DNA of 61,793 nucleotides, filler included, from Sanchytrium tribonematis (GCA_018985235.1; 5 parts of 5 records of this genome joined end to end with filler, not necessarily neighbours in it), one strand, 5' to 3'; shown: positions 631-59,150, counted from the first letter of the whole stretch. Numbers and translations: made by a program. Notes: a model not told the origin generated them from the sequence alone.

Positions 631-3600
631 TCAGTCGTCTTCATTGATCACAGAGCTTATTAAACTATCGACGTTAAGCGCTAGTTGCCGCTGCCTATTT
701 TTGTTTGTATCAAACAAAAGTGGTTCAGTCAAAGCTTGGAATCCAGTTTCTTCAAGTAGAACACTGAGTTGTATATTGTATTTGCCTAGAACTTCCACTG
801 CTTTTATATAAAGATTTGTAATGTTTTGCTTAAAACCATCATTAAAAGTATTTTTCGCCAATTGCCGTAATCTGGCAATCAATTTCGGTGATATTGCAGC
901 AAAAATATCCGGCCGAAGTTGAACTCCATCATATAAAATTGTAAACAAGCTTTCAAGCATTTGCTCAGATAAATCTAAATATAGAAAATTAAGTGCCATG
1001 GTCATAATAAATAATATTGAAGTGTCGCTTTTAACCAGCATTACCTCATAAAGAGTTACATCGTGCTTTGACATCTCAGGCACAATTTCTCTCACATCGT
1101 ATTGGTCGCTGCAAGTTAAAAGCAAAACGAAACCTGTCAATTCGCTTCTTAGGCTCATATTTTTCTGGATATCGCATAAATTTAAAATGCTTACAACAAC
1201 AGTCTCTGTGATATTTTTCGTGTCTTTATCACTCAATCCTTTTGACAAGGCAGAACTTAACGCAAATCCGAAATCCAACTCAAAATTTAAACCACTGTGT
1301 TTATCCATGCTCTTGCTTACCTCTGCAAATGATCCTCTGACTTGTAACAAGCTATCTATTAGTCCAAGTTCAATAAAGTCACCATTTTGATCCAGTGAAT
1401 GTAATCCAGCCTCTAATAAATGAAGTGAATAGACAAAAAGCTTTTTGTGGCCCAATAATAGCACATAAATCGCAATCCAAATTATTTTTCTGGTAAAGTC
1501 TGATTGATACATACTTCCACTCATGATATTTGTCAGGCATATTATTGTAGAGCACGCAAGATCAGAGTCATCGGGTTCAAAATGAGTCAAACTATATTTC
1601 AACACCTAAATTAATAAACGGCACCATTAAAATTTGATATATCAAGTCGTCATCTGCATCGTCACTACTTAAAGCACCCAAAGCAACAAATGCGCGTGGT
1701 TGTAAAATTTTGTTGTATTGAAACGCACTACTACTAACTAATCCCATTAACCTCGCTCTATGAGCATGTAAATCATCCAAGCTTTTACTAGCACAGATCA
1801 ATATGTCTGCAATCAAATGAACTAGATGGCCTACATCTCCTAACGTTGGTTCTTTGTTCAAAACATCGGATCCGATTAAATTTTGTTTTGGAAGATATGC
1901 CAATCCAAAAAGATTTAGAACTGATTCATTTTCAGCTTGATCGGTGATGTATTGCAATAAATTTTCATCTAAACTGTCGTTGATACTATAAACTAGATTG
2001 CATAAAAGGCGGTACACATTAATTCGCTGTTGGGCATTTCCTTGACCAGCCAAACTTATAATAAGATACATGACATCTGCCAGATAATAGTCTACACTCA
2101 ATGAACCATTAAATGCATAGTTGGCTAGAATCTGTAAATGTATATCAATGCTATTCAGAGGATTGTCAGAATTTATAATCAAGGTTTTTCGAATACAACT
2201 GAGAATCTTTCCAACTACTACATTTATGTTCATACCAACTGCACAAAGTATTTCTAGAAATACTTCACTTTGAACATCATTCATATTCATAGCTAATATA
2301 ATGTCAGTAACAAGATTTGCAGCGGCTGGATTTTTAGACATCGGAGCCCATATTTTCTCAGTTAATATGCCAATGAATTCAAAATGGTTACTCGTCAGAT
2401 CAAGCAAACATTTCAGAACCTTGTTCATATTTTCAGTCGAGGTGTCGTCACTACCGCTATCAATTTTTTTACAAATTTGGTCAATGCAGGGCTCAAGCAA
2501 GCTCAAAAAGTCCAAGTTCGAGTAAAATTCCTGGTTTGACAAATACTGACAAGCTTCTAAAATAAAAGGCACAGCGACATTACTGGAGTCGCGTATTAAA
2601 TCTCCTACCAAATGCTCACTCAATATATTACTATTACTGCAGATAAACGAGTTTTTCTTTTCATCAATGGTAATCTCCAACTTTTCCACTAAAGCATGAT
2701 ACAATTGATAAGCTGAATTTTGTAAACTGGTGTTTGACTCTAGTAAATTTGAGAAAATAAGTACCAACAAACTCCCTTGAACTGAATCTAATCCAAATTC
2801 TTTTTCAATAGGCTCTGCTTTGACGATTGTTAGATTCTTCTTACTCTGAGTTATAATTTGATATATTTGATTAAAATTGGGCGATGAAAAATCGTATTCT
2901 TCTGAGTTTGTTTTAATAATAAACCTAACTTCACTCGAAGTTTCTTTTTTCTTGATTACTTCATCTACAGCAGCCACATCAATGACATCGTTGAGAACGG
3001 CCTGGATACCAGCAGTTATTTCAATTTTCTTTGTTGAGATAATTTGTATACAGTTTTTCCCTAATAGCAAATGCACAGGGTATGCGTTACCTTGCAGATT
3101 TCGAATTGTGTTTGAAAAAAGAACAGTTGGTTCATCGAGACTAAGGGTTAGACTTGGCAAGGTTAGTGAATTTGTTGGAAATAATTCTTTGAGCTGCTGA
3201 ACAGTTGAAAAAAAAGTTGCTTTTTTAAACATCTCAATGGTAGCTTTCGGAAAATTTTTAACCAGTCCTCTGAGAGTATTGTTGGGATTAAGTACAAAAA
3301 TGTTTTTGACATTGTTTATCATATTATTGGTTACAATTGCACTGATTTTCTCAATCACAATCTCTGAAATGGCATTCTCGACCGCGAATCCTGTCAAGTC
3401 GATCAATATATAGTACTTATCGTGCGCAATCGAGTTTAATAAAGAATATGTATAATATATAGCATGTTCTAGATCGATCTGAGAAACGTCGTATCTTCTC
3501 GCAATAAAAACTATTCCAGGTGTTCTTTCTTTCGTTCTACTACCTTCAGTTATAAAGCCTAGATTTTTAATTTTTGATCCATCTACACTTTCATATTTCT

Positions 3601-8663: not shown

Positions 8664-9026
8664 TCATTTGCTGCTATTGTGTCCTCTTCCTCTAGAACGT
8701 CCTCTTCCTCTATTTGCCCCTCTTCCACCGCGTTGACCTGATCTATTATTCTTTTTGTTGTAATTTGATTTTTTATCTGATTTAGGCTTATCAAGTGCTT
8801 CTTTGTTAAGTCTAATACACTTAACGCAATTACCCTTTACGTACACATCTTCGGCCTTGAGCTGTACAATAGGTTCCTGACTAGGCTTTACAATGACAAC
8901 GTCTTTTAATTTGCAGTTCATAAAATGATCGCATTTATCTAGTATGCCTGTATAAAAATCGCCATTTTTACATTCTATACTCACTAGATTGCCACAACTA
9001 TTCTCCAAAACATGAGATGGTAGCAT
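8664..9026 (-). CDS. LSM4: Sm-like protein, Lsm4 type
   Basis: MLP start, IECKNGDFYTGILDKCDHFMN (Sm1), VYVKGNCVKCIRL (Sm2), RG/RGG-rich tail. Confidence 0.75.
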   Translation of the reverse strand: MLPSHVLENSCGNLVSIECKNGDFYTGILDKCDHFMNCKLKDVVIVKPSQEPIVQLKAEDVYVKGNCVKCIRLNKEALDKPKSDKKSNYNKKNNRSGQRGGRGANRGRGRSRGRGHNSSK

Positions 9027-9180
9027 TTAATTCCTTTGTTACAAAAACAAAATTACTTAAAGTTTTCATATTTGACAATAAACATATGATCTAATGTAGC
9101 TCGCAAAAACGACTTACTTACGGCTTATCTGTTGATGATTTGTTATTATCTCAATATTATTGGAGAAAACATAAAACATT

Positions 9181-9870
9181 ATGCAGAGAGCTCAGGACAG
9201 AATTGGTTCCAAAGGTGCTAGTGCAATGGCTAGGAAAGAAGAATTGCAACTTAATAGAAGGGACAGACTTAAAAAATTAGCAATGGACACTGTAGATTTG
9301 AAATCGGATCCTTATTTTTTGAAAAATCATTTAGGAACATTTGAATGCAAATTGTGTCTCACAATACATAGCAACGAAGGAAGTTATCTTATTCATACTC
9401 AAGGAAAAAAACACCAGATGAATATATCTAGGCGTGCCGCCAAAGAAGCGTATCTTAGTACAAATACAGCTGGAATGGGTTTGTTTGAACAAAAAGCTAA
9501 TATTGTGGAGGCACGAAAACCAAAAAAGAGGTTCACAAAAATTGGGGTTCCTTCCTACAAGATTACCAAAGTACGGGATCCATTGACTTCCAACATGGGA
9601 ATTTTAATACAAGTTGATGTTCCAAAAATAGTAGATAAGGTAGAGCCAATGCATCGCTTCATGTCTTCATTTGAACAGAAAAATGAAACGGCAGATAAGT
9701 CTTGGCAATATATTCTAATTGCTGCTGAGCCTTACGAAACGATTGCTGTAAAAGTCCCAAGCTATGAACTTGATATCGAGCAAGTATTTAATTATTATGA
9801 TCCAGACGAAAAAGTTTTTATATTGCAGATAATGTATAACGGTACAATTAATGAATTGAAAATTGAATAG
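9181..9870 (+). CDS. SF3A2: Splicing factor 3A subunit 2 (Prp11/SAP62)
   Basis: DPYFLKNHLGTFECKLCLTIHSNEGSYLIHTQGKKHQ zinc finger; HRFMSSFEQK; IAAEPYETIA. Confidence 0.95.
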   Translation: MQRAQDRIGSKGASAMARKEELQLNRRDRLKKLAMDTVDLKSDPYFLKNHLGTFECKLCLTIHSNEGSYLIHTQGKKHQMNISRRAAKEAYLSTNTAGMGLFEQKANIVEARKPKKRFTKIGVPSYKITKVRDPLTSNMGILIQVDVPKIVDKVEPMHRFMSSFEQKNETADKSWQYILIAAEPYETIAVKVPSYELDIEQVFNYYDPDEKVFILQIMYNGTINELKIE

Positions 9871-10445: not shown

Positions 10446-11477
10446 TTATTTAGTAGGAGTATTCACATTACTGGGTGCATTGTGCTTTTCACGCAGCAAA
10501 AGCTTTGACTGGAAAAACTTTTCTAGAGAATCTGCGCTTTTATAGTATGGAGTATTTGGCGCATTGTAAATTCTGCAATTGTCAAAAATAAGTTGGACAT
10601 CACGTTTAAATGCTTCCAAACTTACATATTCATTATTGGTAACTTTTTCTGCTAGTTTTCTTAAATCCATTGGATTTGTGATCAAGGTATAATAGTCTTT
10701 AACTTGTTCACCATCAACTGGTTCAGCAAATGGCCATGCACTGTGGTGATTTCTTAAATCATCAAGTAACTGAGTAAATAAATTTAAATTTGCACTTTTA
10801 GCTACTATGGAATGTTTTTCTGCGAGTTCTGGCGTCCAACCGCTTTCCTTTACACCAGGTATTGACATCGGATCGATAGGACCTTTTCTAAAATCCAAAC
10901 CTTTGTATCGTGTCTTTTGCGAGGTATGTTGGCTTATAATATCATTGATTGTACTTTTTTGCAATTCAATATCTTCTTTAATTGTCAAATAATTCACTTT
11001 TGGCAAAATCACGCACACCATTGGATTTGCCCCTTCGTAATCCTTAATATAACCTTTCCAAGTTTTTTCATCTAGAACTCCAAAATCTTGAGTAAATCCT
11101 TGCTTTTTAAAATAGCCAATTGCATAGTTGTCCGCATAAGTTATGAGATATCTATAATCTCCTAAGTTCGACACCGCGTGCTTAAGATTGTTCATAATTG
11201 CACTGCCATAACCTTTCACTTGTTCGCTACTTTTGACCGCCGCAAAAACAATTTCGACAAACCTCCGGTGTTGAAATGGTTTATAGCAAATACCGCCTAT
11301 GACAGACTCGTCATCACTGATTAGAATCATGGAATTGTGTGATCTATCATAAACAACTTTTGCAATATACTCACGAGGCATGTTGGGTAGTTGTTTTTGA
11401 AATATATTTTTTAGGCCTGTAAGCAATACTGTATTCTCTTCACTTCCATTATTTGTGCAGTGCTGAAATCGAGTCAT
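10446..11477 (-). CDS. GCN5: Histone acetyltransferase Gcn5 (GNAT + bromodomain)
   Basis: LTGLKNIFQKQLPNMPREYI, EQVKGYG, TYADNYAIGYFKKQGF; bromodomain SAWPFAEPV..DYY..NPMDL..NCRIYN. First ATG at 11477. Confidence 0.95.
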   Translation of the reverse strand: MTRFQHCTNNGSEENTVLLTGLKNIFQKQLPNMPREYIAKVVYDRSHNSMILISDDESVIGGICYKPFQHRRFVEIVFAAVKSSEQVKGYGSAIMNNLKHAVSNLGDYRYLITYADNYAIGYFKKQGFTQDFGVLDEKTWKGYIKDYEGANPMVCVILPKVNYLTIKEDIELQKSTINDIISQHTSQKTRYKGLDFRKGPIDPMSIPGVKESGWTPELAEKHSIVAKSANLNLFTQLLDDLRNHHSAWPFAEPVDGEQVKDYYTLITNPMDLRKLAEKVTNNEYVSLEAFKRDVQLIFDNCRIYNAPNTPYYKSADSLEKFFQSKLLLREKHNAPSNVNTPTK

Positions 11478-11528
11478 AATAATATCAAGTTTCAACTCCT
11501 CAAGCCTTGCAAAATATTTCCAACTTCG

Positions 11529-12305
11529 ATGTTGAATGTAGTGGTAGGATGGATATTACATAGTCTCGATTTATCTCTAGATCTCACTAGGCATGACTCT
11601 GCGATAGATTTTTTGCAAAATTCTCCATTTGATGTCAAGTTAAATCAAGAATTATGCATCTTTTTCGGAAATTTGTACAAATGGAGTACTGCCTATTCAC
11701 TTTATGACACAAGTCCGTTCCAATTTATATTGCTATTGGGAATTGATACTGGACTAAATTTATTTATTAATTTATTATATTTCACCTACGCTGGCCATTT
11801 CCTATTCTATGTTGTTATGTCAAGAGTGCAAAATTTGTTTTATAGCACAACCTACTCGCTCTTTTTGTTGTTTCGGTCGAAAAGGTACAACGTGCTTAAG
11901 AATCGCACAGAAAATACTTCCTTTGAAATGGATCAATTTATTTTAGGAACTATCATCTTTATTCCTTTTATTTTAGCATTCCCTACTGTTATTATATTTT
12001 ACTCTTATTCAGTTTACATGATACTAGAGTTATACATGATTCACTTTCTATACTTCTATGTGAAGTCCTTTTTACGTACTGAATTCAAATTGAGCTTCGA
12101 GTCCAAAAAAGTAACTTTTTTTTCAAATTATCCATGTTTTGAAACTATTCAGAATCACTTCATTACATCATACAACAACATGGAAATAAAAATGGAGCGC
12201 TTCAGCTTGTACCAAGTCAGCGAAACCTCTGAAAGAGCAAATTTGAAGCAAATCATACGCGGAGTTCCATTCAGATTAAAAGCCAAACATTTATTGACGC
12301 CATAA
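11529..12305 (+). CDS. GPI1: GPI-GlcNAc transferase subunit Gpi1/PIG-Q (short form)
   Basis: KLNQELCIFFG, LFLLFRSKRYNVLKNR, DQFILGTIIF..FPTVIIFY. Start codon uncertain. Confidence 0.85.
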   Translation: MLNVVVGWILHSLDLSLDLTRHDSAIDFLQNSPFDVKLNQELCIFFGNLYKWSTAYSLYDTSPFQFILLLGIDTGLNLFINLLYFTYAGHFLFYVVMSRVQNLFYSTTYSLFLLFRSKRYNVLKNRTENTSFEMDQFILGTIIFIPFILAFPTVIIFYSYSVYMILELYMIHFLYFYVKSFLRTEFKLSFESKKVTFFSNYPCFETIQNHFITSYNNMEIKMERFSLYQVSETSERANLKQIIRGVPFRLKAKHLLTP

Positions 12306-20185: not shown

Positions 20186-23100
20186 ATGGAAGGAGATCAA
20201 CCCCAACAGCCTAGAGTTCGAAAATATGGAGGTTTAAGGGATACCCCTTCGCTTGAACAAGAAAATAAAGATTCACAGTCACAGCCACAGCAGATGCCTG
20301 CAGGAGAAAAGAAAAAATCGCTTTATGGTCTACGAGCTCTCACGAATGACGCAGAAAACAAAAATAGTGCCGAAATGGAAACCAGCAATCAGACGAGTAT
20401 TGAGGAGGACCCCGCTGCTAATCAGAAAAAGCGACTTTATGGAGTAACTAGAATTTCTGCCAATGATCAACCTGAAGTTCAAGATACTGTAGATATTCCT
20501 GAAGAAGAAATCCTGGAAAGTATGCAACCCCAAACTGCGGCTGATTTCTTTTCTGGTAGCAAAAAAGATGATCCATCTAACATAAAAAAGGTTTTCCACA
20601 AAAGCGTTAGGCCTACTAAATTGAAGAAAAAGTTGACACCGGAAGAAACCATGATTGGCCATTTAACATTTAGAAGAAAAGCCTGGATGTTTTTCGTAGC
20701 CTTAATGACCTGTTGGATTCCAGAATGTTGCGTCAAAGCAAGAATAGATTCTCCGGAGAAACGTATAGCTTGGAGAGAAAAGGTCACACTCTGCCTGCTG
20801 ATGTTTTGTTTTAGTGTTGGTGGTGTGCTTTGGCTGGAAATTAAACGATTTATTACTTGTGTCGATGGAGATCCAAAATTAAACATTCGAAATCCAATAC
20901 ATAAGAATGTATTTTCAACTGTTAGCAGCTCCCAAGTCCTTATCCATGGACAACTTTATAGTGCAGACTCCAATGGTCCTCTTCGCTATGCAGCACAATA
21001 TGCTGGACTTGAGGCTTCCTCTCTATTTCCCAGAGTTTTTAAAGCTCCTTATGATCAGGACTTGCAATCATGCGTCAATATGACAATCATCAATAGGGAT
21101 ACGAATTACAATCAATTTATATCAGCCTATGCTCAAAAAAGAAAATATAATCTTACCAAAGATGTTAACGGAAACTATGCAGGTTGTAAAGACCCTAATG
21201 GAAATCCAACTTCTTGCTACTATGGGCAAGCCGTAGATGGTGATTTGAGTCAGAGCGTTCTCGGATCTCTCTTGAAAACTAAAGACACTCTAATGAATGA
21301 AACTGATAGAATGTGGTTCATTATTGGTGATACAGTGTATGATGCAACAGAGTATGTGAAAACGGCAACCGAATTCGATTGGGACAATCCTTTTATAAAA
21401 CCAGCAGGTGGTCCTCTTGATGTTTATAGCCGTCGATTTATTTTGAACGATGATATCACAGTTTTTCTAATGAACAATTTCTTTACAGATGCAACGGCAA
21501 ATTTCGTTAATTTGCAAGGTTATGCTGGTGTTCAAAAATGTTTTGATAAATTGTTCTTTTATGGTTACGTTGAACCTCAAAATAGGTTTGCTTGTTGGGT
21601 TTTAGATATACCATTTTATAGTATGTCGGTTGTCGTATTATGGGTTCTTTATTTTAGACTGATAACCGCTCTCCTCTGGTACATTATTACTCCAAGAGGC
21701 TATAGAAAAGATGCTTATGTCATTTGCTTCATTCCTTGCTACACTGAAGGTCCCTCGATGGCTGTTACTCTGGAAACCTTAGCAACCGCAGACTATCAAG
21801 ATGAAAAGAAACTACTCATGGTAGTATGTGATGGTAATATTACTGGTAAAGGAAATTCAAAACCAACACCAGAGGTCGCTCTAGACCTTCTAGGATGGAA
21901 AGGCGAGGACCCTAAACCTAGAGCTTATTTAGCTTTAGGAAAAGCCGACGCAAAAGTCAATATGGCAAAGGTTTATAGTGGCTTTTACGAATTTCAGGGC
22001 CATACAGTTCCCTATATGGTTATTGCAAAAGTGGGTAAGCCAAGCGAGAAAAGCACTCCAAAACCGGGAAATAGAGGAAAGAGAGACTCTCAACTCATTT
22101 TGATGAATTTTTACAACAAGCTAACTTATAAAAACAGAAAGATGTTTCCATTAGAATATGAGATTTATTTTCACATTAAAAATATTATTAAAGTAGATCC
22201 TCTAGAGTACGAATACTGTTTAATGGTGGATGCAGATACTAAAGTTGACGCTGGAAGTTTAAAACACTTGATTGGACCACTTATTGAAAATCCTATGGTG
22301 ATTGCTGGTTGCGGAGAAACGAATGTCAGCAACAAATATGCATCTTATACGTCTATGATTCAAATATATGAGTATTGGATCAATCATCATTATGGAAAAT
22401 GCTTTGAGAGCTTCTTTGGAAAAGTAACTTGTTTACCAGGATGTTTCTGCATTTACAGAATGAGATATCCGAGAGGAGAGCCATTTCTCTGTCATGATAA
22501 CATTATAAAAGATTACAGTATAAATCGAACCATGACACTCCATACCAAAAATCTACTTCATTTGGGAGAAGATCGTTATTTGACAACTTTAATTTTAAAA
22601 CATTTTCCAACAAAGAGATTAATATTTTTACCAATGGCAATCTGTTCTACTGATATTCCTGATAAATTTGCAGTTTTAAAATCGCAAAGAAGAAGATGGA
22701 TTAATTCGACCTTTCACAATCAGTATGTCTTGTTCAACATTCCCCGAATTTGCGGGAGATGGTGCTGTGATATGAAATTGTTAGTTATGTACGAGTTGTC
22801 CTCGTTTCTAGTTATGCCTGCCGCAACATTATATTTGTATAGTTTAGTTGTTCGTGGTGCTCTGCAAGGTAATTGCTTTTCATATAGGTGGAGATTATAC
22901 TATTACGCTAGCTGGTTTAGCTGTATTGTACGGTGTTCACATGGTTATTATTTTTGTGCAAAAGAGACCGTCATATTTACTGTGGCTGTTTGTCTACACC
23001 GTGTGCTCTTATCCAATTCATGGTCTTTATCTTCCGGTTTACAGCTTCTGGCACTTTGACGATTTTAGTTGGGGGAATACTAGACAGGTGAGTGCCAAAC

Positions 23101-25830: not shown

Positions 25831-26623
25831 TCAAAATTCCAAAGTAAACCTGGCATCGGAAAATCCTAAATAAATAACAATTACCTGCAGACTCCATTAG
25901 TTTACCGTTTGAGTCAGTACCTTCGAAAACGACATTGAATTTAATCGGACATATAGGATCAGACGTTTTCCCACTATCTGGGTCTACATTCGGAACACAT
26001 TTTTCCGCCTTGTAATTGTCGATGCAATTATGATTAGCGTCAACATCAATTTGTGAGCAAGCTCTTATTGGTTTTTGCCAATACATGTTATTTAAGATGC
26101 CTTTCTTAAACTTCAATGATATAGTTCTACTGGATTGTACGTAAACATCAGAATTAAATGGCTGGAACCATTTTGTACCGTTAGAGGTGGCCAAATATTG
26201 GTTGCAATTTTTTCCACCCGGACACTGAAACACAGCAAGATTAACTATTCCTGTATTTCTTTGTGCCACTGTCCATAAAACAGAGTAAGTATCTACATCT
26301 ACCAAATGCTGTGAAGTGTATAGCTCAGTTTTATATCTCGGAAGGCCATCGGCACCCAACCCGGCATCAGTATCTTCATAAGTTGCATTATGCTGAATAA
26401 TTAAAAATATTGTGGAACCTTTACTATACGCAGCTGGATCTCTAGCATTTCTTTGATCGGGCCCAAAAGTTCCTGTGGAATTTCGACAACCACTGCAATA
26501 AGTAGTTACTTTGGATGCATTAACTATTCCCAACTGAGCCAAGTCCTGAGTTATATTTGCAGTGGAGTTCTGGACTCCAAAAGTTATTAATGAAGCTGCA
26601 GATATTAAAATATTAAAAATCAT
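25831..26623 (-). CDS. Secreted Cys-containing protein resembling the plant Expp1-type family, 2 exons, 257 aa
   Basis: Signal peptide; ISLKFKKGILNNMYW and FNVVFEGTDSNG recall that family (from memory). Splicing 25866-25884 gives the end SAGFSDARFTLEF*. Confidence 0.5.
25866..25884 (-). other. 19-nt spliceosomal intron GTAATTGTTATTTATTTAG
   Basis: CAG|GTAAT donor, TTTAT branch motif at the fixed position; removal abolishes the overlap with the PRI2 start. Confidence 0.8.
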
Positions 26624-28782: not shown

Positions 28783-30220
28783 TTACTTTTTCAGCATCCA
28801 ATCAATTACATCGATTTTAGTCACAATTCCACGAATTTCATCTTTATCTGTAATAATCGCTGCAGAGTGCTTGTCAAAAAATTTGATCAATTCTGGTAAT
28901 TTTGTTGATTCTTCCATATTAACGTAATGCTTAGAGTTGTCAAATTTGAACATGACCTTATCCACAGCAGTGTCTTTTCCAATTTTCCCGCTAGTGAGTT
29001 TTGACAAAATGTTTCCAAGTGTAATTAATCCTTTAATTTTCGAACCTAAAACGACTGGTAATTGATCAAAACCGTGACTTTTCATAATTTCAATTGCTTT
29101 TCCACAAGAGGTCTAAATTAATCGTAGATACTTCTAACTGAACTGTAATTGGACTTTCCAGTTTTAAGTCTTTCACAGTATAACCCTTATAGGCTTCTAA
29201 TTCGTCAGGAACTGGCGACACAACCTTTGCATCGCCTTCTAAAAATCCATTTTTCTTCATCCATTCGTCAGACAGATGCTTAGTCAAATAGTTTCTGACA
29301 GAATCTGGTAACAAAACCACTACAGTTTTTGTAGAATCTTGATCATAGCCATGATCTCTAATAGCTTTAAATGCATTCGCTAGAGCTGAGCCAGAGCTAC
29401 CACCACACAGTAAGCCTTCCTCAGCAATAAGTTTTCTGGCATAGTAAAACGATTCTTTATCATTTGACTTGTACCATTTATCAATCAAAGTTCGATCTAA
29501 TACATCTGGAATAAAGTCGTAACCTATACCTTCGACTTGATATCCTCCTTCTTCCGTATTCAAAGAATTAGGCTCTGCCAAAATGCTACCAACAGGATCT
29601 ACTCCAATTACAATGACCTTGGAATTTAATTCTTTCAATTTTTTGGAAGTACCACTGATTGTACCACCAGTTCCAGCACCAGCAACAAACATGTCAACTT
29701 TTTGACCACTTTGCTCCCATATTTCAGTTGCAGTGTATTTATAATGTGCGTTTGGATTTGAAGGATTTTTGTATTGATCTAAAATTACGCTATCCTTGAT
29801 TTTCTCGTTTAAGCGTTTCGCAACACTAATGTGTGACTCTGGAGAGTCCCAAGCTGCTTCGGTTGGAGTTCTTATTATTTCAGCTCCTAAAGCCTTGAGA
29901 ACAGCCACTTTTTCTTGAGACATTTTTTCCGGAAGCGTAATTATACATCTGTAACCTTTGACGGCAGCGCAAAGCGCTATACCAATTCCAGTGTTACCTG
30001 AAGTTGGTTCAATAAGCGTACATCCTGGCTTTAGACGGCCTTCCTTTTCAGCCATTAGAACCATTTCCTTGGCAATTCTGTCCTTCACAGACCCGCCTGC
30101 ATTAAAAAATTCACATTTGGCAAGAACTTTACATTTGATGCCTTCTGCCTGAGGAATACACTTGAGTTCTACTAAGGGAGTGTTACCGATTCTTTCCAAA
30201 ATTGATTGATTTAATTCCAT
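28783..30220 (-). CDS. CYS4: Cystathionine beta-synthase (no heme domain; C-terminal CBS pair), 2 exons, 472 aa
   Basis: [44 protein letters not shown] domains join in frame after removing 29113-29131. Confidence 0.96.
29113..29131 (-). other. 19-nt spliceosomal intron GTATCTACGATTAATTTAG (CBS)
   Basis: Removal gives [28 protein letters not shown], a normal CBS-domain start. Confidence 0.92.
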
Positions 30221-31592: not shown

Positions 31593-34500
31593 TTAATACA
31601 AAATCGACTTTACTTGATCTATGGCTTTTGTAATATGTGCATTGATTTGAGCTTCTTCCATTTGTTTGTTACTAAGTAACGTTTTCTTTTTGAGCTCTAA
31701 TAGGTATTTCAGATCGTCTTGCTTATATTTGTATGATTCCTTCAATAAATAATCACCGAGGTCATCAAAATGACGATAGGCTCCATAAAAATGTTCAGCT
31801 TTCAATAATGACACATCTTGGATATCTCTCAGATGCTGTTCTATTGATATTATATTTTTCCTCATTTTCAATATGCCACTATCATCAATGGTCTTAATGT
31901 ATTTCAGATTTGATGTGAACAGATTCTCGAATAAAACTTGCAAATCACTAAAAATAAACTCAAAATCATTGGGATGTAAATTCTCTCTGCAGATGTCTTC
32001 CAACATACTTAAGGAATGATTTAAAATGTAGACATAGTGATCTGGCTCCGGCTTATTGCCAGTAAATTCGTAGTTTCCTTCACGAAAAATTAAATCCATG
32101 TAAAAATAAATTTGTCCTCGAATCTCCATTTTTAATGCGAATAAACAAAATTTTGACAATTTAATCACATCGGCTTTGACACCTTGAAAAGTTCGAAAAT
32201 TGTCAGCGCTAATTGGTACTTGCTGTGATTGATCGTCTGACAAAATAATCTTGTCTAAATAAGAATCACTTGCAGCAATAGTTTCTTCCATTAAGCTTAC
32301 CATTGAACCAATGCTAGTCAAATTGGGTTCAATTTTGACATTTTTGGTTGTCATGGTAGACACTTCTGTAAGTAGCCAAGTCAAGCTTGTGTTCAATTTT
32401 GCTATGGTAATCAATGCTGAGATATCATTTTGAAGAGAATCTTTAGAGATATCTTTGTGCACATTACTTGATTTTTCCGCTAAAAATAAATCTACACTTG
32501 AGGAGTTTTTTTCCAATAATAGATTTAAACATGTCAGAATATTTTCGTGTTGCAAAAACTTGGCAGTACTTTTTTGTGTGATCTGGTACACTTCTAGGTT
32601 AATTTAAAATACCATTTAAGAATGTTTTACATCTATCATACACTTTTTTGATCAAATTGAAAAGAATCAGTGAATATTCATTATTGTGAAACGGAAGTAG
32701 ACTCATTAATGTAGCGAGACTTTTAATAAGTCTCGAAGTACGCTTTGTAATTCTGAGGATGCTATCTTGGTTGTTTTCAAGATGAAATGCATCTGTATCT
32801 GCAACAATGTTATCAAGAATATCATTGATTTGAGATTGTACTTGAGGAAAATAATATTGCTGAAAACAGTCGTCTAAAAACATTATAAGATCAGAGTCTT
32901 TCAATGGAGTCAGCCTCATTGCAACATCTAGAAAAGAGACTGTATTTGGAAAAATGGAAAGCATATTAAATATATTAGAATTGGCCAGATTGCTACTATT
33001 TGAATCCACCTTGACACTGTATGGATCAAAACTAAGCAAGGCATTTGAAGGTGGTTTGAATAAAGTTGAGCTGGGTGAAAAATTAACATGCTTGAGCTTA
33101 AACATTAGTGTTCTTGCTTTTTCGTTTTTTAAAGAATCTAGATTTGCAATTGTATTTCCTAAAAGATAATTTTCCATGAAGGCCAGTAATTCTTTTCTAA
33201 ATATTGCCCAAGAGTCATCAAATATCCTGACTTTTGTAAATTTACGAAGCACTTCTTCTGTGATATATATAAAATGCATGATCCCTACAATTTTGGAAAA
33301 TAAAAACTGCAGGTAAGAATCAAGAACTTTGATGGCAAGTTCATCAATCGTTAATGTGTCGGGTTGCATAGGTAAAATCTTATAGTTTGAAAATTCTTTC
33401 AGTATAAGAGACTTTGCCATTTCCATAATTTCATCCATTTGGGCCTGGATGCTCCTGGTAATACTCTCTATTAACTCATTTGATCGTTCTAGTTCGACAA
33501 CACTTAAAACTAGTAGATGCAGATATTCCATCACGTCTACGTTTTCATAATTGTCATAGTCTTCAATTAATTTGGGGTTATAATTATTATCTTTAATTGT
33601 CTTTAACAATAATGGGTTCATATCGTCAATGATCTTCTCTTTCCTATTTTGGTCTTTCGATGCAAAAGCGTCCTCAAACTGAAGACTTCTAGATGCACAT
33701 TTTGGATGTTTTAGGAAAATAATATCTTGTAATTCATGAATTGCTTTTTCGATAGTTATGTTCATTTTTCTGACTATGTCTTTTCTTAAATTATCCATTT
33801 GGTAAACTTTTTGCAAATCAAAATTTTGGCAATTATGCAGAGCCTTCTTTAAAGTCCTTGCCATTGTTAAAAACTTGCGTTTCTCATTTAGAGATTCGAC
33901 TGATTCTATTTGAATTTGTATCTTTCTGATTATATCTACTTGACCTAATGTATCTCTAAGATGCAGCGACTTGTTATGTAGGGTCAAGAGATCTTCATTT
34001 CTTTCAACTAGTGTTTCTTTGATTTCCATACCTCTTGCATATGCTCTTTTGGATGATTCCATTGAAATACTGACATTTTCAATCAAGCTTGTATAAGTCT
34101 CTAGAGACTTTTGAAATTGATCATAACGGTCACTAACTAGTACTTCAAAGGCTTTTTCCGCTTTAAGAATTAAATGTGATAGATTTTGCAAATCTTTTAT
34201 AGGTCCTTTCTCAAGCATTATAGATAATGCTAATACAACTGGTGAAAAATCCTCTTCAAAAATGTATGGGAAATCGCTCGAAAAATAATCAAATAATTCT
34301 TGCGCTTCTTTTGGCCATTTCTTATCTCTTTGTAAATTTGTTTTTGTTTTACTCGTGATGGCGTTAAGATTGTTCGTTGCATCTGCATCAGCAATAAATT
34401 CGTCTTCACTATGCTGACTTCTGTTCCTCTTAATCGATGGTTCAGTTTTTGGAATAGATTGTGGTACTGGAGGAACATCTTCCGATTTTACTTCAGGCTC

Positions 34501-35484: not shown

Positions 35485-36166
35485 ATGCAACCGAATTTAC
35501 AATTGAAAATACAATTGCCGTATCATTGGACAGAGGAAACTGCAAAAAAATACTTTCACAGACACTGTCCAACTGCTCATCTTAATTTGGATGGTAAAAG
35601 TGGTATTTTAGTATTCAAATGTTATGCAGATATGCTGGATGCAATGAAGTGTGCTTCAATTCCACATCTTGATTCTGCCCCAACTTTGCAATTATACTAT
35701 GATACCAAATATTTCCTAGTGCACGAGTCTATTTTCAATTCGCATCATCAGCAAGGAACTTTTAAATTTTCATTGTCGAAACAAAAAAGACTTAATGAAT
35801 GCTTTCTGGTATATAAAACTAATTTAGAAGTATGAATCTGTTGTTTTCCTTGTACATAATTGTCAAGATATTATCAAAAATGGTTTATTAATGTCTCCAC
35901 TTTCTTCTGGAAACAAATTTGTTTATTCGGCTGATATCCGATTGTTTACTACAGATATACCATTTGATTTTATCAAAAAGCAATTGAAGCAGAGGCTGAG
36001 GCAGGACGATGGAATGTTCCCCTATATGGATCCTTTGGGATTGCTTGATATGATTTTTAAAAGTCAAGCGACTTTTTTAGAATTGGATGACGACATAGGG
36101 AAATTTATTTATTCTCTCTTCGCATCTCCAAAAGGGCATGCCATCCTGTCTATTAATAACAACTAG
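35485..36166 (+). CDS. Hypothetical protein, 2 exons, 220 aa
   Basis: ORFs 35485..35835 and 35891..36166 join in frame (ECFL|KYESVV) after removing 35809-35827. Confidence 0.65.
35809..35827 (+). other. 19-nt spliceosomal intron GTATATAAAACTAATTTAG
   Basis: ACTAAT branch motif with A at -6; removal fuses two ORFs. Confidence 0.82.
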
Positions 36167-36862: not shown

Positions 36863-37110
36863 TCAATCTTTAGCTTTAATCTTATTTACAAATGATTTGA
36901 ACCAATTTCTATCAGAGTCTTTTGTTAATACCCTTTTGTACCTATCAATGTAAACAATTTGTAAGTTATTAAAAGCACCTCTGCGCTTCTCACGGATAAA
37001 TTCTACAGCATCCAGATTTGCCATTCCATGTTCAATTAAGGCTATAGCAATTAAAACAGGTGCCCTGCCTAGTCCTGCAACACTAAATAAATTGGAATTA
37101 CCAATGCACA
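36863..37110 (-). CDS. PRL/PTP4A-type protein tyrosine phosphatase, 5'-partial (absent from the ORF track)
   Basis: Manual translation after splicing: [75 protein letters not shown]. Confidence 0.92.
37083..37101 (-). other. 19-nt spliceosomal intron GTAATTCCAATTTATTTAG (PRL phosphatase)
   Basis: Splits the catalytic Cys codon (TG|T) of [11 protein letters not shown]. Confidence 0.95.
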
Positions 37111-40435: not shown

Positions 40436-40609
40436 TTTCAAATAGCTTCGTGGGGTATTGTTGGAGGACAAATTTATTAATAAAACAAAAATCCAAGGCA
40501 TTATATTCGATTTTCATTAAAGAACTTCCTTTAAATACAAATTTACATGGTATCAGAAGTAAGCACTCTATGTAAATAATATTTATCACAACTGAAAAAC
40601 TGATTTTGC

Positions 40610-40751: not shown

Positions 40752-40827
40752 TTTGACACAAATTTTAAGGGGAATAATCAGACACTATTTTCTAACAACT
40801 CAGTCAACCTCCGTATTCAGGGCAATA

Positions 40828-42077: not shown

Positions 42078-42426
42078 TATTCAAGAGTAAAAAAAGCCTC
42101 CTTATATTGAACGAGGAAGATATTCTTTATTTGCAATACAAGAAATTAATCTTAACAGTTAAACTAAATTGTTCCATATATTACTATCAGGTCGTTGGCG
42201 ATTCAAAACCAATATGTTATTTTGTAAATATGAATAAGATGAACCCTTTATTAATTCTAGTACTCTATCTGATGACCAAACGAGGCAGAATTGCTCATAT
42301 GCATCCTTTTAGGTTTCGTGTAAACTGTAATTGGATTCACAAGAGATCAAGATTTTTTCTAGTCTCGTTTCCAAAGAGCGTGTCCCATATTATTTATTTT
42401 TCACATTATTTCACCACACTGGTTTT

Positions 42427-46957: not shown

Positions 46958-47039
46958 TGTAACAGGAATGTCATCTAGAACATTCTACATTCCAGTTATA
47001 AAGGAATCTTCCCCCAATAAATACCTTTCCCCCTTTACA
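46958..47039 (+). repeat. Putative 5' LTR, 82 bp
   Basis: TGTAA...TTACA inverted termini, internal TATAAA then AATAAA, directly followed by the PBS. Confidence 0.72.
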
Positions 47040-47049
47040 TGGTAGCGAG
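47040..47049 (+). promoter_or_regulatory. Primer-binding site TGGTAGCGAG (initiator tRNA-Met type)
   Basis: Abuts the LTR-terminal CA; TGGTAGCG matches the tRNA-iMet PBS core of yeast Ty1/Ty3. Confidence 0.75.
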
Positions 47050-49486
47050 TGATCTACGTGAAACCGACCCACAGGAACAACACAGAACTTCCACGAACAT
47101 CTATGAAGAACAATTAGATTTAGAAACAAATTCAAATGGAGAAACTTTGGTTCGAATTCCAAAAACTTCCAATGAAAATGAACCCACTAGTACACCAGTG
47201 ACAACAATTGATGAAGATCCTACTAATTTAGAAACGATGATGAAAGAATTCAAAGAGATGAAAAAAAGTATTGAACAAATTACTAAGTATCCAAGTCCTG
47301 GTCAAATGTAACCACCACCTTGGGTAATATCCAACAGCGTCAACGATATTGTTAAAGACTTTAAAAACAACATTCCCGGATTTGACGAAAAGAGAGATAA
47401 AATCGAAGATTGGCTTTCTAAAATGGAAGACAATAATAAGGAACTACTCGGATGGGATCAGGACAGACTCTATAAAGAAGTCAAATTAAGACTGCCATCG
47501 TCCCTTTTCAAACACATTCAATATTGTGAAAAGAATTATAAAAGTTTGAAAGACACTTTACTGTTGGAATTGAAACCACCAAGCAATGATATAAAATTCA
47601 CCAATGAATTTTTTCGCTTGTCTCAGAGACAAATCAATCAATTCAGCAGTACGTGAAAGTGCTCAAAGAATTTCATCAGAAATGCAATTTTGATACAGAG
47701 GATCCAAATGAGTGTGTAATTTTCTTTCGAAAATTTTGTTCATCTCTACAAGACTCTAGAATTATGAGACAGATAAAAGCAGAATACTCACAAGATCGAT
47801 GCAAAAACTTCCGCGATGCGTACGAGTTGGCAATTAACTTAGAATCAGAAGCAACAAATTCTTTCAAGACCAACATTCCTAATAAGCGAAAGTTTACAAA
47901 TGACAAGAGCTTCTTTTAACCGCAAAAGAAAGCATTTAAAAGTTAAATCCACTGAACGTGCCAACGGCTTAAATCTTAACATTTTAGGCTTTGTACAATG
48001 TAATGTTTACTACAGAAATACAACCATAAAACAAAATTTTCATGTCATTAAAAATTTGACAAACGAGATCATCATTGACAGAGACAGCAAGAGACTTCAG
48101 AATATGAAGATTGATTTTGAACGAAACTTAATATGGATTAATGGAATTTCAATACGCATGAGTCGTAGCCAAGATGAAGTTGCCATACAAACCGCTGTAT
48201 AAACTACGTAAGTACTACTAAAAACAGTAAATTGGAGAAATTTTGAATACAAGAAATATATAAGGATATGAAAAATGATATACGCAGATGAAAACGGTGA
48301 GAATACTATTAATGAGCTAGTATAAATCGTGAATTGTCAAAAAAAGATCAAAGCACTTTATTTAATATAGCGAACAAATATACATTACTTTTCAGAATGG
48401 AGTCTAAACAAGTGTTAAAACCAGACATCACATTCGGACAGAATGTGAACCGATTAGATCCGGAATCCCTAGACTTAGTACTAGAGAATGTGAAATAGTG
48501 AGAGAGGAATGTGATAATATGTTTCAAAATGACGTTATTGAGCCGTCTAATTCGGATTGGAGATCCGCAGTGGTTTTAATGCCAAAACCAAATGGATCTG
48601 TTCGATTTTGTGTAAACTATAAGCAATTAAACAAACAGACGAAGTTTGACGCGTATCCGTTACCGAATTTACATTCTCTACTAGACAAATTAAATGGATC
48701 CAAATATTTTATTTCTTTAGATCTGAAATCGGGATATTGGCAAATTAATTTAGCAGATCCCGACAAAGAAAAAACGGCCTTTGTGACACCATTCGGGCTT
48801 TATCAATTCAAAGTAATGCCATTTGGATTATCAACCGCTCCGGCTACATTTCAAAGACTAATGAATGAAATATTTGACAAAATGATAGGTAAAGACTTAT
48901 TAGTATAACTAGATGATTTATTGATTTTTGCAAAATCTATGGAAGAATTAATAGAAAAGTTTGAAAGGGTTCTAATTTAACTTGAATCCCACGGTTTAAC
49001 TTTGAGTGCAAAGAAATGTAAAATTGGAATGACAGAGATCGATTTTCTGGGATTCAAAGTGTCCGGAAAGGGAATACAAGCTTCAAACCAGAAAATAGAG
49101 GCGACCAAAAAGTTACAAACACCAAAATCAGTTACTCAGGTCAGACAATTCCTGGGCCTGACAAGCTTTTATCGTTGCTTTATTCATAGATACGCAACAA
49201 TAAGTCAGCCACTGTTGGAATTGACTAAAAAGAATGCGATTTTTAGATGGTCCGATGACTGTACAAAAGCCTTCGAAAGTCTAAAGAAGATAATTGTATC
49301 AGATCAAGTAACTTTAGCACATCCGAAATTTGATCAGCCATTTTACGTATACACAGATGCAAGTAAATACGGAATCGGAGCCGTATTAGCTCAAGATAAA
49401 CGACCAGTATGGTTTATATCAAGAGTATTACAGGGTGCTGAGACCAACTATGATGTCAGAGAGAAAGAATGCTTAGCGATTCTATA

Positions 49487-54041: not shown

Positions 54042-54059
54042 AAATCTTATGAATTCAAT

Positions 54060-55489: not shown

Positions 55490-55563
55490 CGCTCCCGGGT
55501 GGGCTTGAACCACCATCCTTTCGGTTAACAGCCGAACGCGCTAGCCGATTGCGCCACGGAAGC
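55490..55563 (-). tRNA. tRNA-Asn (GTT), intronless
   Basis: Reverse complement GCTTCCGTGGCGCAATCGGCTAGCGCGTTCGGCTGTTAACCGAAAGGATGGTGGTTCAAGCCCACCCGGGAGCG folds as a cloverleaf; anticodon arm TTCGG-CTGTTAA-CCGAA. Confidence 0.96.
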
Positions 55564-56309: not shown

Positions 56310-56315
56310 ATCATT

Positions 56316-56771
56316 TTATGCAACAGAAGGGCATTTTTGAGTAAGAAATTTCTGAATTTCGATTGTATCATTTTTCAGCTTTAAAGTTTTAAAATCGTTT
56401 ATCTCGAATACCTTTATGGTATTAAGTGTCTGAGTTCCAGTCAATGGTTGAGATTTGTCAGGCAAACTATTCACATCAAGATAACTTAGAAATGCTGTAT
56501 CAGTGCCTTTCACATAAAATTTAAATTCACAAGTTTCTGAGTCAAACTGTACGCTTGACCATGATATAAGCCCAGTATTTGCTGGAAGTACTTGAGCTAG
56601 TTCTACCCTTTCAGAATAACAACTTGAGGTTTGATTGTACAAAATCAAGCCAACAATATTGTGATTAAAATTAGGTACGTCTCGTAATCTGATTTTATTA
56701 TCAAAATCAATTCCCTTAATATTTAGTTCCGCGTGGTAGTATTTGCTCATAACGAGGGCATTAAATAACAT
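56316..56771 (-). CDS. Hypothetical protein, possibly secreted
   Basis: 151-aa ATG ORF with a short hydrophobic N-terminus; no recognised family. Confidence 0.5.
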   Translation of the reverse strand: MLFNALVMSKYYHAELNIKGIDFDNKIRLRDVPNFNHNIVGLILYNQTSSCYSERVELAQVLPANTGLISWSSVQFDSETCEFKFYVKGTDTAFLSYLDVNSLPDKSQPLTGTQTLNTIKVFEINDFKTLKLKNDTIEIQKFLTQKCPSVA

Positions 56772-56935
56772 TGTCTTAAAAAAGCCAGTGCTTTAAATAG
56801 ACTTTAGCGTAATACAGTGAGTCGCAAACATATTTGTATTTAGGTGAGACAATGCACAAGGAATTACAGTGACACTTGTCTTAATTTGCACACATTGGGT
56901 ACTAAGATAGTCCCTCCTGTCACATCTAAAATTCA

Positions 56936-58054
56936 ATGACACAGACGTTCACTGTTTATCATACCGAATGGTCAACCTATGGAAGAAATTATCAAATTTC
57001 AGACCTGCCTATTGATGAAATACCAAATATTAGCTATGCGTTTATAAATGTGGATGAACAAGGAAATCTGAAAATTATGGATCCCTATGCTACACTAGAA
57101 AAGAGATTTACTGAAAATGGTGTGTTGCCACTTGATACTTGGAATGAAAACGACAAGCTTCCATATTATGGTAACTTTAATCAACTACGCAAGTTGAAAA
57201 TGCAACATAAATTTCAATTAACATTGGCTATAGGAGGTTGGACTTTAAGCAAAAATTTCAGCTCTGCGGTAAAGCCTGAAAATGCAAACAATTTTGTAAA
57301 TTCTCTTTTGCAATTTCTTGAGAAATATACGATATTTGATGGGGTATCGTTTGACTGGGAATATCTAAGTAACGATGGCGTAAATTACGGGAATGGTGGA
57401 AACGTCTGCTCTCCTTCAGATGACATCAACTTTGTCAATTTTCTTGAGTTGTTTAAACGTAGCTTGAACAAGCCTTTAATCATTTCATTTTGTTGTACGG
57501 CAGATCCACAGAAAATCAAATTTGATGTCCCTCGGATCAATTCCTTAATTGACGAATGGCACATAATGACATACGATTTTCATTCTGGAAATTGGGGCGA
57601 AAAGATATGTGCACACCAATCAAATTTATATCCAGTTCCTTATGCTAGATTGTCCATTAAAGAATCCGTTGACTCTTATATAAAGCTCGGAGCAGATGCG
57701 TGTAAAATTATGATTGGTGCTGTGGGATATAGTCGAGGATTTTCCAATACTGATGGTCCTGGTAAAGCTGCCAGTGGAGGTTCTCCAGATCGAACTTGGG
57801 AAGATGGTGTCGTTGATTACAAAAAGCTTCCTTTGAGTGGCTCCATTGAATATTTTGATGAAGGTGCTGGTGCATCGTATAGTTATGATTCATCAAGAAG
57901 AGTGTTCAACAGCTACGACACCCCTCAAAGTATAGAACTAAAATGCAAATTTATCAAAGATATGAATTTGAAAGGCTGCATATTTTGGGAAAGTAGCGGT
58001 GATGCTAAAAACGACAGATCTCTTATAACTGCTCTTCACAAATACTTGAAATAA
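56936..58054 (+). CDS. GH18 chitinase, no signal peptide
   Basis: WSTYGRNY, ISYAF, GNFNQLRKLK, IGGWT, FDGVSFDWEY, IMTYDF, SYDTP, IFWESSGD. Confidence 0.93.
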   Translation: MTQTFTVYHTEWSTYGRNYQISDLPIDEIPNISYAFINVDEQGNLKIMDPYATLEKRFTENGVLPLDTWNENDKLPYYGNFNQLRKLKMQHKFQLTLAIGGWTLSKNFSSAVKPENANNFVNSLLQFLEKYTIFDGVSFDWEYLSNDGVNYGNGGNVCSPSDDINFVNFLELFKRSLNKPLIISFCCTADPQKIKFDVPRINSLIDEWHIMTYDFHSGNWGEKICAHQSNLYPVPYARLSIKESVDSYIKLGADACKIMIGAVGYSRGFSNTDGPGKAASGGSPDRTWEDGVVDYKKLPLSGSIEYFDEGAGASYSYDSSRRVFNSYDTPQSIELKCKFIKDMNLKGCIFWESSGDAKNDRSLITALHKYLK

Positions 58055-58345: not shown

Positions 58346-59150
58346 ATGTCTGACAAACCTCTTCCAAAACCCTCAGATTTAATGTCAAAACTGCCAAGTC
58401 TCAGTAATACTCTGCAAAATAATAAAGTAAATCAGCAACTGCCACCTGCAGATGGTAGCAATGCTCCACTTCCAAGTTCCTCCAGTTTATTAAGCAATTT
58501 ACCAAAGCCGCCATCTGTCTCCACACCGAATTCTGCATTACCATCTGCGAGGGCTCTCGGCATTACTTTCCCTTGGCATGAAGAACGTTATAGACAGAAT
58601 TTGAGCTCCTACAAAAAAGAAACGAAATCCTCAGTACTCCCACCAATGCAAACTCCATCTTCGTTACCATCTCAAAATAGTACTTTTCAGCAATTACCAC
58701 CTTCTATGCAAAATTCCTCCGCGTTGAATCCGTTAAACCACCAACCAAAAACATTTCAAAATACCCCGTTGCAGGGACTGCGTACCAATAATTTGGGAAA
58801 AAGATATCTTGAAGAGCAGCAGGTAATTTTGTTTCACTCAGTTTGTTCCTAGCAAAATTCAAAAGGTTGAAAAAACTCAACCAGCGCATATTCATAAATC
58901 GATTCCACCAAGCTCAACCAATCAGCAACAGCAAAAGAAGGTCAATGAAGTCGAAGTCACTAATTCGTCCTTTCTCTGCAGATTTATGGATCTTCCAGGC
59001 GTGATTACCCTCCAAAAATTGCCTGGTTGCGTCAAATTAGATGATCAAACAATAAGCTGTACCTCGGTCCAACAGCAAATCGAAATGACACGGCAATTTA
59101 TTTTAGAATACGATCGCCTCAAAACTGGAAAATATCAGGTAGTTCGATAA
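58346..59150 (+). CDS. Pro/Ser-rich hypothetical protein, 2 exons, 261 aa
   Basis: Removing 58823-58841 extends the ORF by 102 codons (EEQQ|FVPSKIQK...GKYQVVR*) to 17 nt from the convergent neighbour. Confidence 0.7.
58823..58841 (+). other. 19-nt spliceosomal intron GTAATTTTGTTTCACTCAG
   Basis: CAG|GTAAT donor, TTCAC branch motif with A at -6, CAG acceptor. Confidence 0.82.

What the first reader, a model, noticed from the sequence alone, without database searches (positions are those of the whole stretch)
1606..58841. All eight detected introns are exactly 19 nt: a fixed-length ultra-short spliceosomal intron system in a fungal-type nuclear genome
Seen: eight genes on four contigs each contain a GT..AG segment of exactly 19 nt whose removal restores or completes the reading frame: 1606-1624(-) GTGCCGTTTATTAATTTAG; 22869-22887(+) GTAATTGCTTTTCATATAG; 25866-25884(-) GTAATTGTTATTTATTTAG; 29113-29131(-) GTATCTACGATTAATTTAG; 32594-32612(-) GTATTTTAAATTAACCTAG; 35809-35827(+) GTATATAAAACTAATTTAG; 37083-37101(-) GTAATTCCAATTTATTTAG; 58823-58841(+) GTAATTTTGTTTCACTCAG. 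Five restore recognisable conserved proteins (NF1, chitin synthase, CBS, Sec8, PRL). I found no longer intron. Known: typical fungal introns are tens of nt longer. Comparable tiny uniform introns occur in Stentor (15-16 nt) and chlorarachniophyte nucleomorphs (18-21 nt, mostly 19), while microsporidian and Paramecium introns are mostly ~23-25 nt or longer. Inference: an independent origin of ruler-like micro-intron splicing in an opisthokont nucleus. Gene predictors with a minimum intron of ~20 nt or more would call these frameshifts. I could not check the literature for this organism.
Basis: partly seen in the sequence, partly recalled or inferred. Interest (0 to 1): 0.95.

Follow-up and report, generated by a model that had tools for sequence, protein, structure and literature searches.

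The report
Nineteen-base introns in an algal-parasite fungus
Eight genes in this DNA from a sanchytrid fungus (a lineage of algal parasites) are each interrupted by a 19-base insert carrying splice signals; these are likely true introns and likely among the shortest known in fungi or animals, and gene lists made without splicing cut such genes short.

Summary
Confirmed. All eight 19-nt GT..AG segments exist. The DNA is from a sanchytrid fungus: it forms a clade with Amoeboradix gromovi at full support. Comparative evidence makes errors unlikely. A chitin synthase ortholog lacks the insert and matches the spliced product without a gap (68 of 73 residues). ORF-called relatives break at the same codon in CBS (3 of 3) and in a secreted protein (3 of 3). 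Their read-through peptides back-read as 19 nt (6 of 10), 20 (2), 21 (1) or unresolved (1). Length is therefore near-fixed, not invariant across the clade. Best reading: U2-type introns shrunk to a steric floor, with the branch point anchored at -6 as in Stentor. No RNA run was listed, so splicing is inferred. My searches found no description in print or in this scan; the scan's Rozella and Neolecta introns are longer. A new, independent origin of a known kind of intron.

The parts
1606..1624 (-). 19-nt intron, phase 0, in neurofibromin/IRA gene (CDS 7780-631; 2376 aa spliced, 2062 unspliced), 86% along the CDS
   Evidence: Both sides match human NF1 in order: upstream to residue 2237, downstream from 2270; RasGAP and CRAL-TRIO. 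The exact junction is not pinned by homology.
22869..22887 (+). 19-nt intron, phase 1, in chitin synthase (CDS 20186-23300; 1031 aa spliced)
   Evidence: Pfam Chitin_synth_2 positions 23-426 then 429-510. Ortholog P0242 has no insert here and matches the spliced product at 68 of 73 residues with no gap. P0243 and P0250 break at this codon.
25866..25884 (-). 19-nt intron, phase 1, in a DDB_G0273449-like protein with a hydrophobic, signal-like N-terminus (CDS 26623-25831); last exon 11 codons
   Evidence: 3 of 3 relatives (42-44% identity) lose similarity and stop within 3-8 residues of the same glycine codon, and all three back-read as 19 nt. Family lead PF28132. Splicing removes an overlap with the primase start.
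29113..29131 (-). 19-nt intron, phase 0, in cystathionine beta-synthase (CDS 30220-28783; 472 aa spliced)
   Evidence: Best of 14 candidate introns against 111 full-length homologs (344.7; next 330.6; best 1-nt deletion 332.8). 3 of 3 sanchytrid relatives break at the same codon with a read-through starting in Val.
32594..32612 (-). 19-nt intron, phase 1, in exocyst SEC8 (CDS 35313-31593; 1233 aa spliced)
   Evidence: Sec8_N upstream; downstream exon matches exocyst component 4, E 9e-15. A 22-nt alternative acceptor exists.
35809..35827 (+). 19-nt intron, phase 0, in a gene of unknown family (CDS 35485-36166)
   Evidence: Joins two ORFs; motif match. No Pfam hit, no homolog test; 22-nt alternative acceptor exists.
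37083..37101 (-). 19-nt intron, phase 2, splitting the catalytic Cys codon of a PRL (PTP4A) phosphatase; 5' part of the gene is beyond the contig end
   Evidence: Removal gives HCVAGLGR, the motif seen in PRL-1 chains.
58823..58841 (+). 19-nt intron, phase 0, in a low-complexity gene of unknown family (CDS 58346-59150)
   Evidence: Joins two ORFs; motif match. No Pfam hit, no homolog test.
9175..9870 (+). SF3A2/Prp11, a U2 snRNP protein (context: spliceosome genes are retained)
   Evidence: Pfam SF3A2, E 5e-32
8664..9026 (-). Sm/LSm-domain protein with an RG-rich tail (context)
   Evidence: Pfam LSM, E 6e-12; tail seen in the translation

Best explanation
The eight 19-base GT..AG inserts, each ending in YTNAYNYAG, are likely U2-type spliceosomal introns of a sanchytrid fungus that have likely shrunk to about the smallest size its spliceosome can process. 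Shown: sequence, signals, frame restoration, shared positions in relatives. Inferred mechanism: the intron is recognised as one unit. GTR(A/T)TT at the 5' end would pair with U1 and then U6. U2 would pair with YTNAY and bulge the A at position 14. With no room for a pyrimidine tract, the acceptor is simply the YAG five bases after the branch A. The product would be a 14-nt lariat loop with a 5-nt tail. Two constraints give the uniform length: a fixed branch-to-AG distance, and a floor on the donor-to-branch distance against which deletion bias has pushed every intron. Relatives that back-read as 20-21 nt fit the same 3' motif with a slightly longer loop.
For: A at -6, T at -8 and Y at -9, -5, -3 in 8 of 8; exon ends in G in 7 of 8. 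Ortholog P0242 is uninterrupted at the CHS site and equals the spliced product without a gap. Removal restores the PRL catalytic motif. Same-codon breaks in 3 of 3 relatives for CBS and 3 of 3 for the secreted protein. Back-reading of 10 read-through peptides from other records: 6 fit all 7 motif positions at 19, 19, 19, 19, 20 and 21 nt, 3 fit the 3 testable positions at 19, 19 and 20, and 1 is unresolved; both window controls return 19 uniquely. Null for a 7-of-7 fit at 19-21 nt is 257 of 16971 GT sites x phases, 1.5%. Two of the fits are at a second CHS position, one in a protein labelled Sanchytrium tribonematis. Spliceosome genes: SF3A2 and an LSm protein here; BRR2, PRP8 and U2AF rows in the A. 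gromovi annotation table. Unitigs of run X1 span 6 of 8 sites with no indel, though X1 may be the source of this DNA.
Against: No spliced transcript or lariat was seen. The branch role of A(-6) is inferred from conservation. Relative lengths come from proteins, not DNA; they assume the same motif and donor codon, longer unconstrained lengths remain possible in 9 of 10, and the null comes mostly from coding DNA, which may understate chance fits for AT-rich introns. On distant homologs alone a GC-AG 19-mer ties with the CHS intron (553.4 vs 553.1) and a 1-nt deletion scores close (548.8). Two introns have no homolog support. No U snRNA lies in the window. All eight lie at 0.49-0.96 of the CDS (PRL about 0.6 by chain numbering), the opposite of the 5' bias in Encephalitozoon; this model does not explain that.
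Confidence: 0.87

Rival explanations
1. Real introns, but 19 nt is only the mode of a wider distribution (for example 19-30 nt); the eight are a small sample biased toward frameshifting 3n+1 lengths.
For: n = 8 allows up to about 31% other lengths (my arithmetic). Relatives back-read at 20 and 21. In-frame introns without a stop are invisible to ORF breaks; a 15-nt in-frame candidate in SEC8 at 32269 scored 7.8 and could not be tested.
Against: 3n+2 lengths would show as readily as 3n+1, yet all six gene-joining breaks shift by +1. No sense-strand 18-, 20- or 21-nt candidate scores above 5.6, against 8.8-12.8 for the eight (4.1-11.3 leave-one-out for seven, -0.3 for NF1).
Confidence: 0.25
2. 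A pure caliper: the spliceosome measures 19 nt between GT and AG without a defined branch point, as proposed for chlorarachniophyte nucleomorphs.
For: All eight are the same length; the caliper idea is in print for 18-21-nt nucleomorph introns.
Against: Nucleomorph introns have no discernible branch A, whereas these have A(-6) in 8 of 8 within YTNAY. The 20- and 21-nt fits in relatives are compatible with the motif tied to the 3' end.
Confidence: 0.07
3. Assembly or amplification indel errors, or pseudogene frameshifts, with GT..AG picked by eye.
For: No independent DNA run was listed. The window has decayed elements with true frameshifts (Ty3 relic 47021-49486) and one unexplained deletion in the primase gene.
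Against: Errors cannot recur at the same codon in three other genomes. A 1-nt error would leave six extra residues that P0242 and PRL lack. Unitigs show no indel at 6 of 8 sites.
Confidence: 0.02
4. Non-spliceosomal removal (Ire1/tRNA-ligase type, whose HAC1 introns are about this size; recalled, not checked) or +1 ribosomal frameshifting.
For: Size and the +1 shift are compatible.
Against: GT..YAG ends, G|GT context and a branch-like motif are spliceosomal marks. Frameshifting would keep six extra residues inside the PRL active site. I did not fold the junctions for Ire1-type hairpins.
Confidence: 0.02

Closest known systems
Tiny introns of Stentor coeruleus and heterotrich ciliates (PMC9505925, passages)
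   Same: Uniform length, GU..AG, AU-rich, branch A at position 10 of 15 or 11 of 16, which leaves a 5-nt tail: the same -6 geometry as here.
   Different: 15-16 nt against 19; Stentor's branch region has no strong consensus, while here YTNAY is clear; Stentor exons tend not to end in G, here 7 of 8 do; 8806 introns against about 0.2 per gene; unrelated lineage.
Mikrocytos mackini introns (PMC10245619, section 7 read)
   Same: Parasite, few introns (224), nearly one length (217 of 224 at 16 nt), conserved sequence; the authors propose the same floor-plus-deletion-bias model.
   Different: Rhizarian, 16-17 nt, reduced spliceosome, no introns in metabolic genes; here introns sit in metabolic genes (CBS, chitin synthase), and spliceosome reduction is untested.
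Chlorarachniophyte nucleomorph introns (PMC6009652, passages)
   Same: 18-21 nt, the same size class; AU-rich, GU-AG.
   Different: No discernible branch A, about 3 introns per gene, relic endosymbiont nucleus; here a main nucleus, intron-poor, with a fixed branch-like A.
Microsporidian short introns (PMC6349667 and PMC10759460, passages)
   Same: Holomycotan parasites with few, very short GT-AG introns.
   Different: About 25 nt in E. cuniculi and a minimum of 24 in V. necatrix, strongly 5'-biased and mostly in ribosomal protein genes; here 19 nt and in the middle or 3' part of diverse genes; separate lineage.
Myxobolid and dicyemid introns (PMC13644364, parts 1-2 of 3 read)
   Same: Opisthokont parasites with convergent ultra-short U2 introns.
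   Different: Median 22-27 nt with a spread of lengths, weak A-stretch that moves with length; here 19 nt with A anchored at -6.

Membership tests
U2-type spliceosomal intron | GT..AG ends with a 5' consensus | tested here: met
   8 of 8 GT..YAG; GTA in 7, T at +6 in 7
U2-type spliceosomal intron | Branch-point motif upstream of the acceptor | tested here: met
   YTNAY with A at -6 in 8 of 8; 7-of-7 fits in 6 of 10 other records against a 1.5% null. Use as branch point is inferred.
U2-type spliceosomal intron | Precise removal restores the orthologous protein | tested here: met
   CHS, CBS, PRL to the residue; NF1 and SEC8 by domain order only; not tested for 35809 and 58823
U2-type spliceosomal intron | Removed from mRNA through a lariat | not testable with these tools
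U2-type spliceosomal intron | Host encodes the major spliceosome (snRNAs and core proteins) | tested here: inconclusive
   SF3A2 and LSm in the window; BRR2, PRP8, U2AF in the A. gromovi table; no snRNA in the window; no whole genome held
Tiny length-constrained intron systems (Stentor, Mikrocytos, nucleomorph type) | Length at or below about 21 nt | tested here: met
   8 of 8 at 19 nt
Tiny length-constrained intron systems (Stentor, Mikrocytos, nucleomorph type) | Nearly all introns of the genome fall in a 1-4 nt range | tested here: inconclusive
   True for 8 of 8 in 62 kb and for 9 of 10 back-read records (19-21 nt); genome-wide histogram not possible
Introner elements (transposon-derived introns) | Many near-identical, recently inserted copies at lineage-specific positions | tested here: not met
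   Positions 7-9 vary freely and positions are shared across the clade
Sanchytriomycota (host taxon) | Monophyly with a named sanchytrid | tested here: met
   Clade with A. gromovi and two ENA proteins, 100/99 for CBS and 100/100 for PRO2 (names). Species not established.

The most novel reading that the evidence does not exclude
Sanchytrids have the shortest nuclear introns of any fungus or animal: a phylum-wide system fixed at 19 nt in this lineage and drifting to 20-21 nt in the Amoeboradix branch, with a branch A hard-wired at -6, converging on Stentor's geometry from a fungal spliceosome. Remaining introns are skewed to the 3' half of genes, and roughly one gene in five in the public ORF-only sanchytrid proteomes is truncated or split.
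Probability: 0.55. Interest if true: 0.82.

Novelty: new variant of a known kind. Interest (0 to 1): 0.72.

Why it matters
The minimum intron a spliceosome can process is an open structural question, and the sub-22-nt cases so far (heterotrich ciliates, Mikrocytos, nucleomorphs) are far from yeast and humans. A 19-nt system in a fungus allows direct comparison of its U2, U6, Prp8 and branching factors with yeast structures. Close relatives at 19, 20 and 21 nt would let the change be mapped to specific spliceosome differences. It is also practical: the published sanchytrid proteins were called as plain ORFs on genomic contigs, and the A. gromovi CBS entry lacks its CBS domain for this reason, so domain-loss and gene-count statements for this phylum need rechecking.

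Tried and rejected
No whole genome is held for this window, so no genome-wide histogram. No RNA holder listed; one DNA run, possibly the source; this is no evidence on expression. Rfam: one tRNA only. ESM Atlas did not complete for the 35809 gene. Rejected candidates: 25 nt at 610 (poly(A)-signal complement, convergent stops); 19-mers at 25018-25036, 47054-47072 and 56495-56513 (inside an open frame, antisense, or at the primase deletion); 18-nt match in CBS and 24-nt matches in LSm and an acyltransferase (inside Pfam-matched coding sequence); a 35-nt option at 25884 that would fuse the secreted protein to primase. P0250 (57% identity, taxon unknown) breaks at the CHS site but gives no length; it is counted as the unresolved 1 of 10. 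Literature: searches 'Sanchytrium+intron' (8 papers), 'Sanchytriomycota+intron' (4), 'sanchytrids+introns' (0) and searches found no description. In PMC8371127, PMC10459994, PMC6899921, PMC9010356 (first half held) and PMC9730499 the word intron does not refer to sanchytrid nuclear introns (passages). PMC11107855, PMC11210418, PMC12225711 and PMC7539958 were seen as listings only. In the supplements of PMC8371127 one file was unreadable and the annotation table was cut. Subscription papers are not searched.

Full report
Observation. The window holds five contig pieces joined by N-linkers, G+C 34.9% without linkers, with about 43 densely packed gene models. All eight segments are present as stated. 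Enumerating 53 adjacent same-strand ORF pairs, a 19-nt GT-AG join exists in 7: the six reader sites that join long ORFs, where 19 is the shortest option, and one antisense pair without the motif. Intron density is 8 in about 56 kb of ORF span, 0.14 per kb; Allomyces is listed at 1.30 per kb on orthologs (PMC8476143, passages).

Signals. Aligned, the eight show GTR at the start, T at +6 in 7 of 8, and an invariant end Y-T-N-A-Y-N-Y-A-G, with A at -6 and T at -8 in 8 of 8. The upstream exon ends in G in 7 of 8; phases are 0 (4), 1 (3) and 2 (1). The pattern occurs 11 times at 19 nt against 1.48 in shuffles and 0-6 times at other lengths. Because the motif came from these sites, this shows internal consistency rather than independent significance.

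Taxon. PRO2 has three hits at 65-68% identity and then a drop to about 50%; one is labelled Amoeboradix gromovi. CBS behaves the same way. Trees place the window with A. gromovi and two ENA proteins at 100/99 and 100/100, as sister to those three (24 and 18 rows chosen by me from 120 hits each). The DNA is therefore from a sanchytrid other than A. gromovi. Its G+C is close to the 34.64% published for Sanchytrium tribonematis, so that species or a near relative is likely; this is inference. The trees do not resolve the position of the clade within fungi.

Are they introns? Three sites are pinned to the residue. CHS: ortholog P0242 (76% overall) has no insert here and matches the spliced product at 68 of 73 residues without a gap. 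PRL: the insert splits the catalytic Cys codon, and removal gives the HCVAGLGR motif of PRL-1. CBS: the 19-mer is the best of 14 candidates against 111 full-length homologs and beats any single-base deletion. NF1 and SEC8 are restored in domain order. Against: on distant CHS homologs alone the GT 19-mer only ties with a GC-AG 19-mer, and SEC8 and 35809 have a second acceptor three bases on.

Relatives. Public proteins of these organisms were called as plain ORFs (for the two named species; inferred for the unnamed records), so they read into introns and stop. All three CBS relatives lose similarity at the window's intron codon and continue with Val, as a GT donor requires. All three relatives of the 25866 protein stop within 3-8 residues of the same glycine. 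P0243 and P0250 break at the window's CHS site; P0242 and the S. tribonematis paralog P0312 break at another site after HFDDF, where the window gene is continuous. I asked which lengths from 12 to 40 are compatible with each read-through peptide and the full motif. Both window controls return 19 only. Of 10 other records, six fit all seven motif positions (19, 19, 19, 19, 20, 21), three fit the three testable positions (19, 19, 20) and one is unresolved. A 7-of-7 fit at 19-21 nt arises at 1.5% of other GT sites. In two cases (P0123, P0364) the out-of-frame remainder can be read by eye as the expected next exon, which fixes 19 nt by frame. These lengths are predictions from protein, not DNA, and longer solutions remain open in 9 of 10. 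On the CBS tree the window and P0123 are 19 while the A. gromovi plus P0122 pair is 20-21, which suggests 19 is ancestral; this rests on one gene.

Artefact check. Shared breaks in other genomes are the stronger argument.

Mechanism. Shown: geometry and conservation. Inferred: U2-type splicing by intron definition, U2 pairing at YTNAY, branching at A14, acceptor chosen as the YAG five bases downstream with no pyrimidine tract, 14-nt loop and 5-nt tail. Stentor has the same 5-nt tail with a 10-11-nt loop, which suggests the tail is a shared lower limit and the loop is what each lineage has shrunk. The floor-plus-deletion-bias account is that of the Mikrocytos paper. Spliceosome genes exist in the window and in A. 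gromovi; snRNAs could not be sought. Unexplained: the introns lie at 0.49-0.96 of the CDS, and the motif scan found no 19-mer at gene starts, whereas E. cuniculi introns are strongly 5'-biased. With eight sites this is a lead only.

Comparison and novelty. Tiny uniform introns are known from Stentor (15-16), Mikrocytos (16-17) and nucleomorphs (18-21). Within opisthokonts the values I read are about 25 nt for E. cuniculi, a minimum of 24 for V. necatrix and a median of 22 for myxobolids; individual myxozoan introns may be shorter than that median. Earlier unchecked notes of this scan give 25-32 nt for Rozella and about 36 for Neolecta, and none concerns sanchytrids. Ten literature searches were run; the seven aimed at sanchytrid or fungal introns found no description, within the limits of an open-access library. 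Verdict: a real, apparently undescribed, independently evolved variant of a known kind. Confidence that these are spliceosomal introns 0.87-0.9; that 19 nt dominates genome-wide about 0.7; interest 0.72.

Noticed in passing
window 24819-25808 (-), break near 25029/25030: The primase large subunit lacks about 55 residues of its conserved C-terminal domain (chain residues 313-367). Two unitigs of X1 abut without overlap at exactly this place, so an assembly deletion or an indel allele is more likely than real loss.
   Followed up: partly
P0242, P0243, P0312, P0250 against window 22869-23100: Differential intron presence in chitin synthase: the window and P0243 are interrupted at one site, P0242 at another about 50 codons downstream that is shared with a paralog. 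This suggests old positions and recent independent losses.
   Followed up: partly
window, all eight introns: Introns lie in the middle or 3' part of genes (0.49-0.96 of CDS), unlike the 5' bias of microsporidian introns.
   Followed up: partly
window 47021-49486 (+): Decayed Ty3/gypsy-like retrotransposon with gag-, protease-, reverse transcriptase- and RNase H-like frames broken by stops and frameshifts (read from translations; labels from my own recognition, not scanned).
   Followed up: no
window 38156-42080 (-): A 785-aa ORF with a weak NACHT-like P-loop match (E 1e-4, below the Pfam cut-off) next to a broken P-loop-like paralog; resembles fast-evolving CRN-like families of zoosporic fungi (recalled, untested).
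   Followed up: no
window 42427-43848 (-) and 44852-46327 (+): Two divergently oriented Acyl_transf_3 (OafA-like) membrane acyltransferase genes; origin not examined.
   Followed up: no
window 56930-58054 (+): Intronless GH18 chitinase (E 8e-63) with no obvious signal peptide; origin not examined.
   Followed up: no
window 10446-12305: GCN5 appears to start just before its acetyltransferase domain and lies head to head with a short GPI1 gene; both look N-terminally reduced.
   Followed up: no
window 55490-55563 (-): One tRNA gene between the SDR and FES1 genes.
   Followed up: no
window 12416-37110, run X1: Clustered two-allele bubbles at roughly 25-45% depth: heterozygosity or a mixed population.
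   Followed up: no
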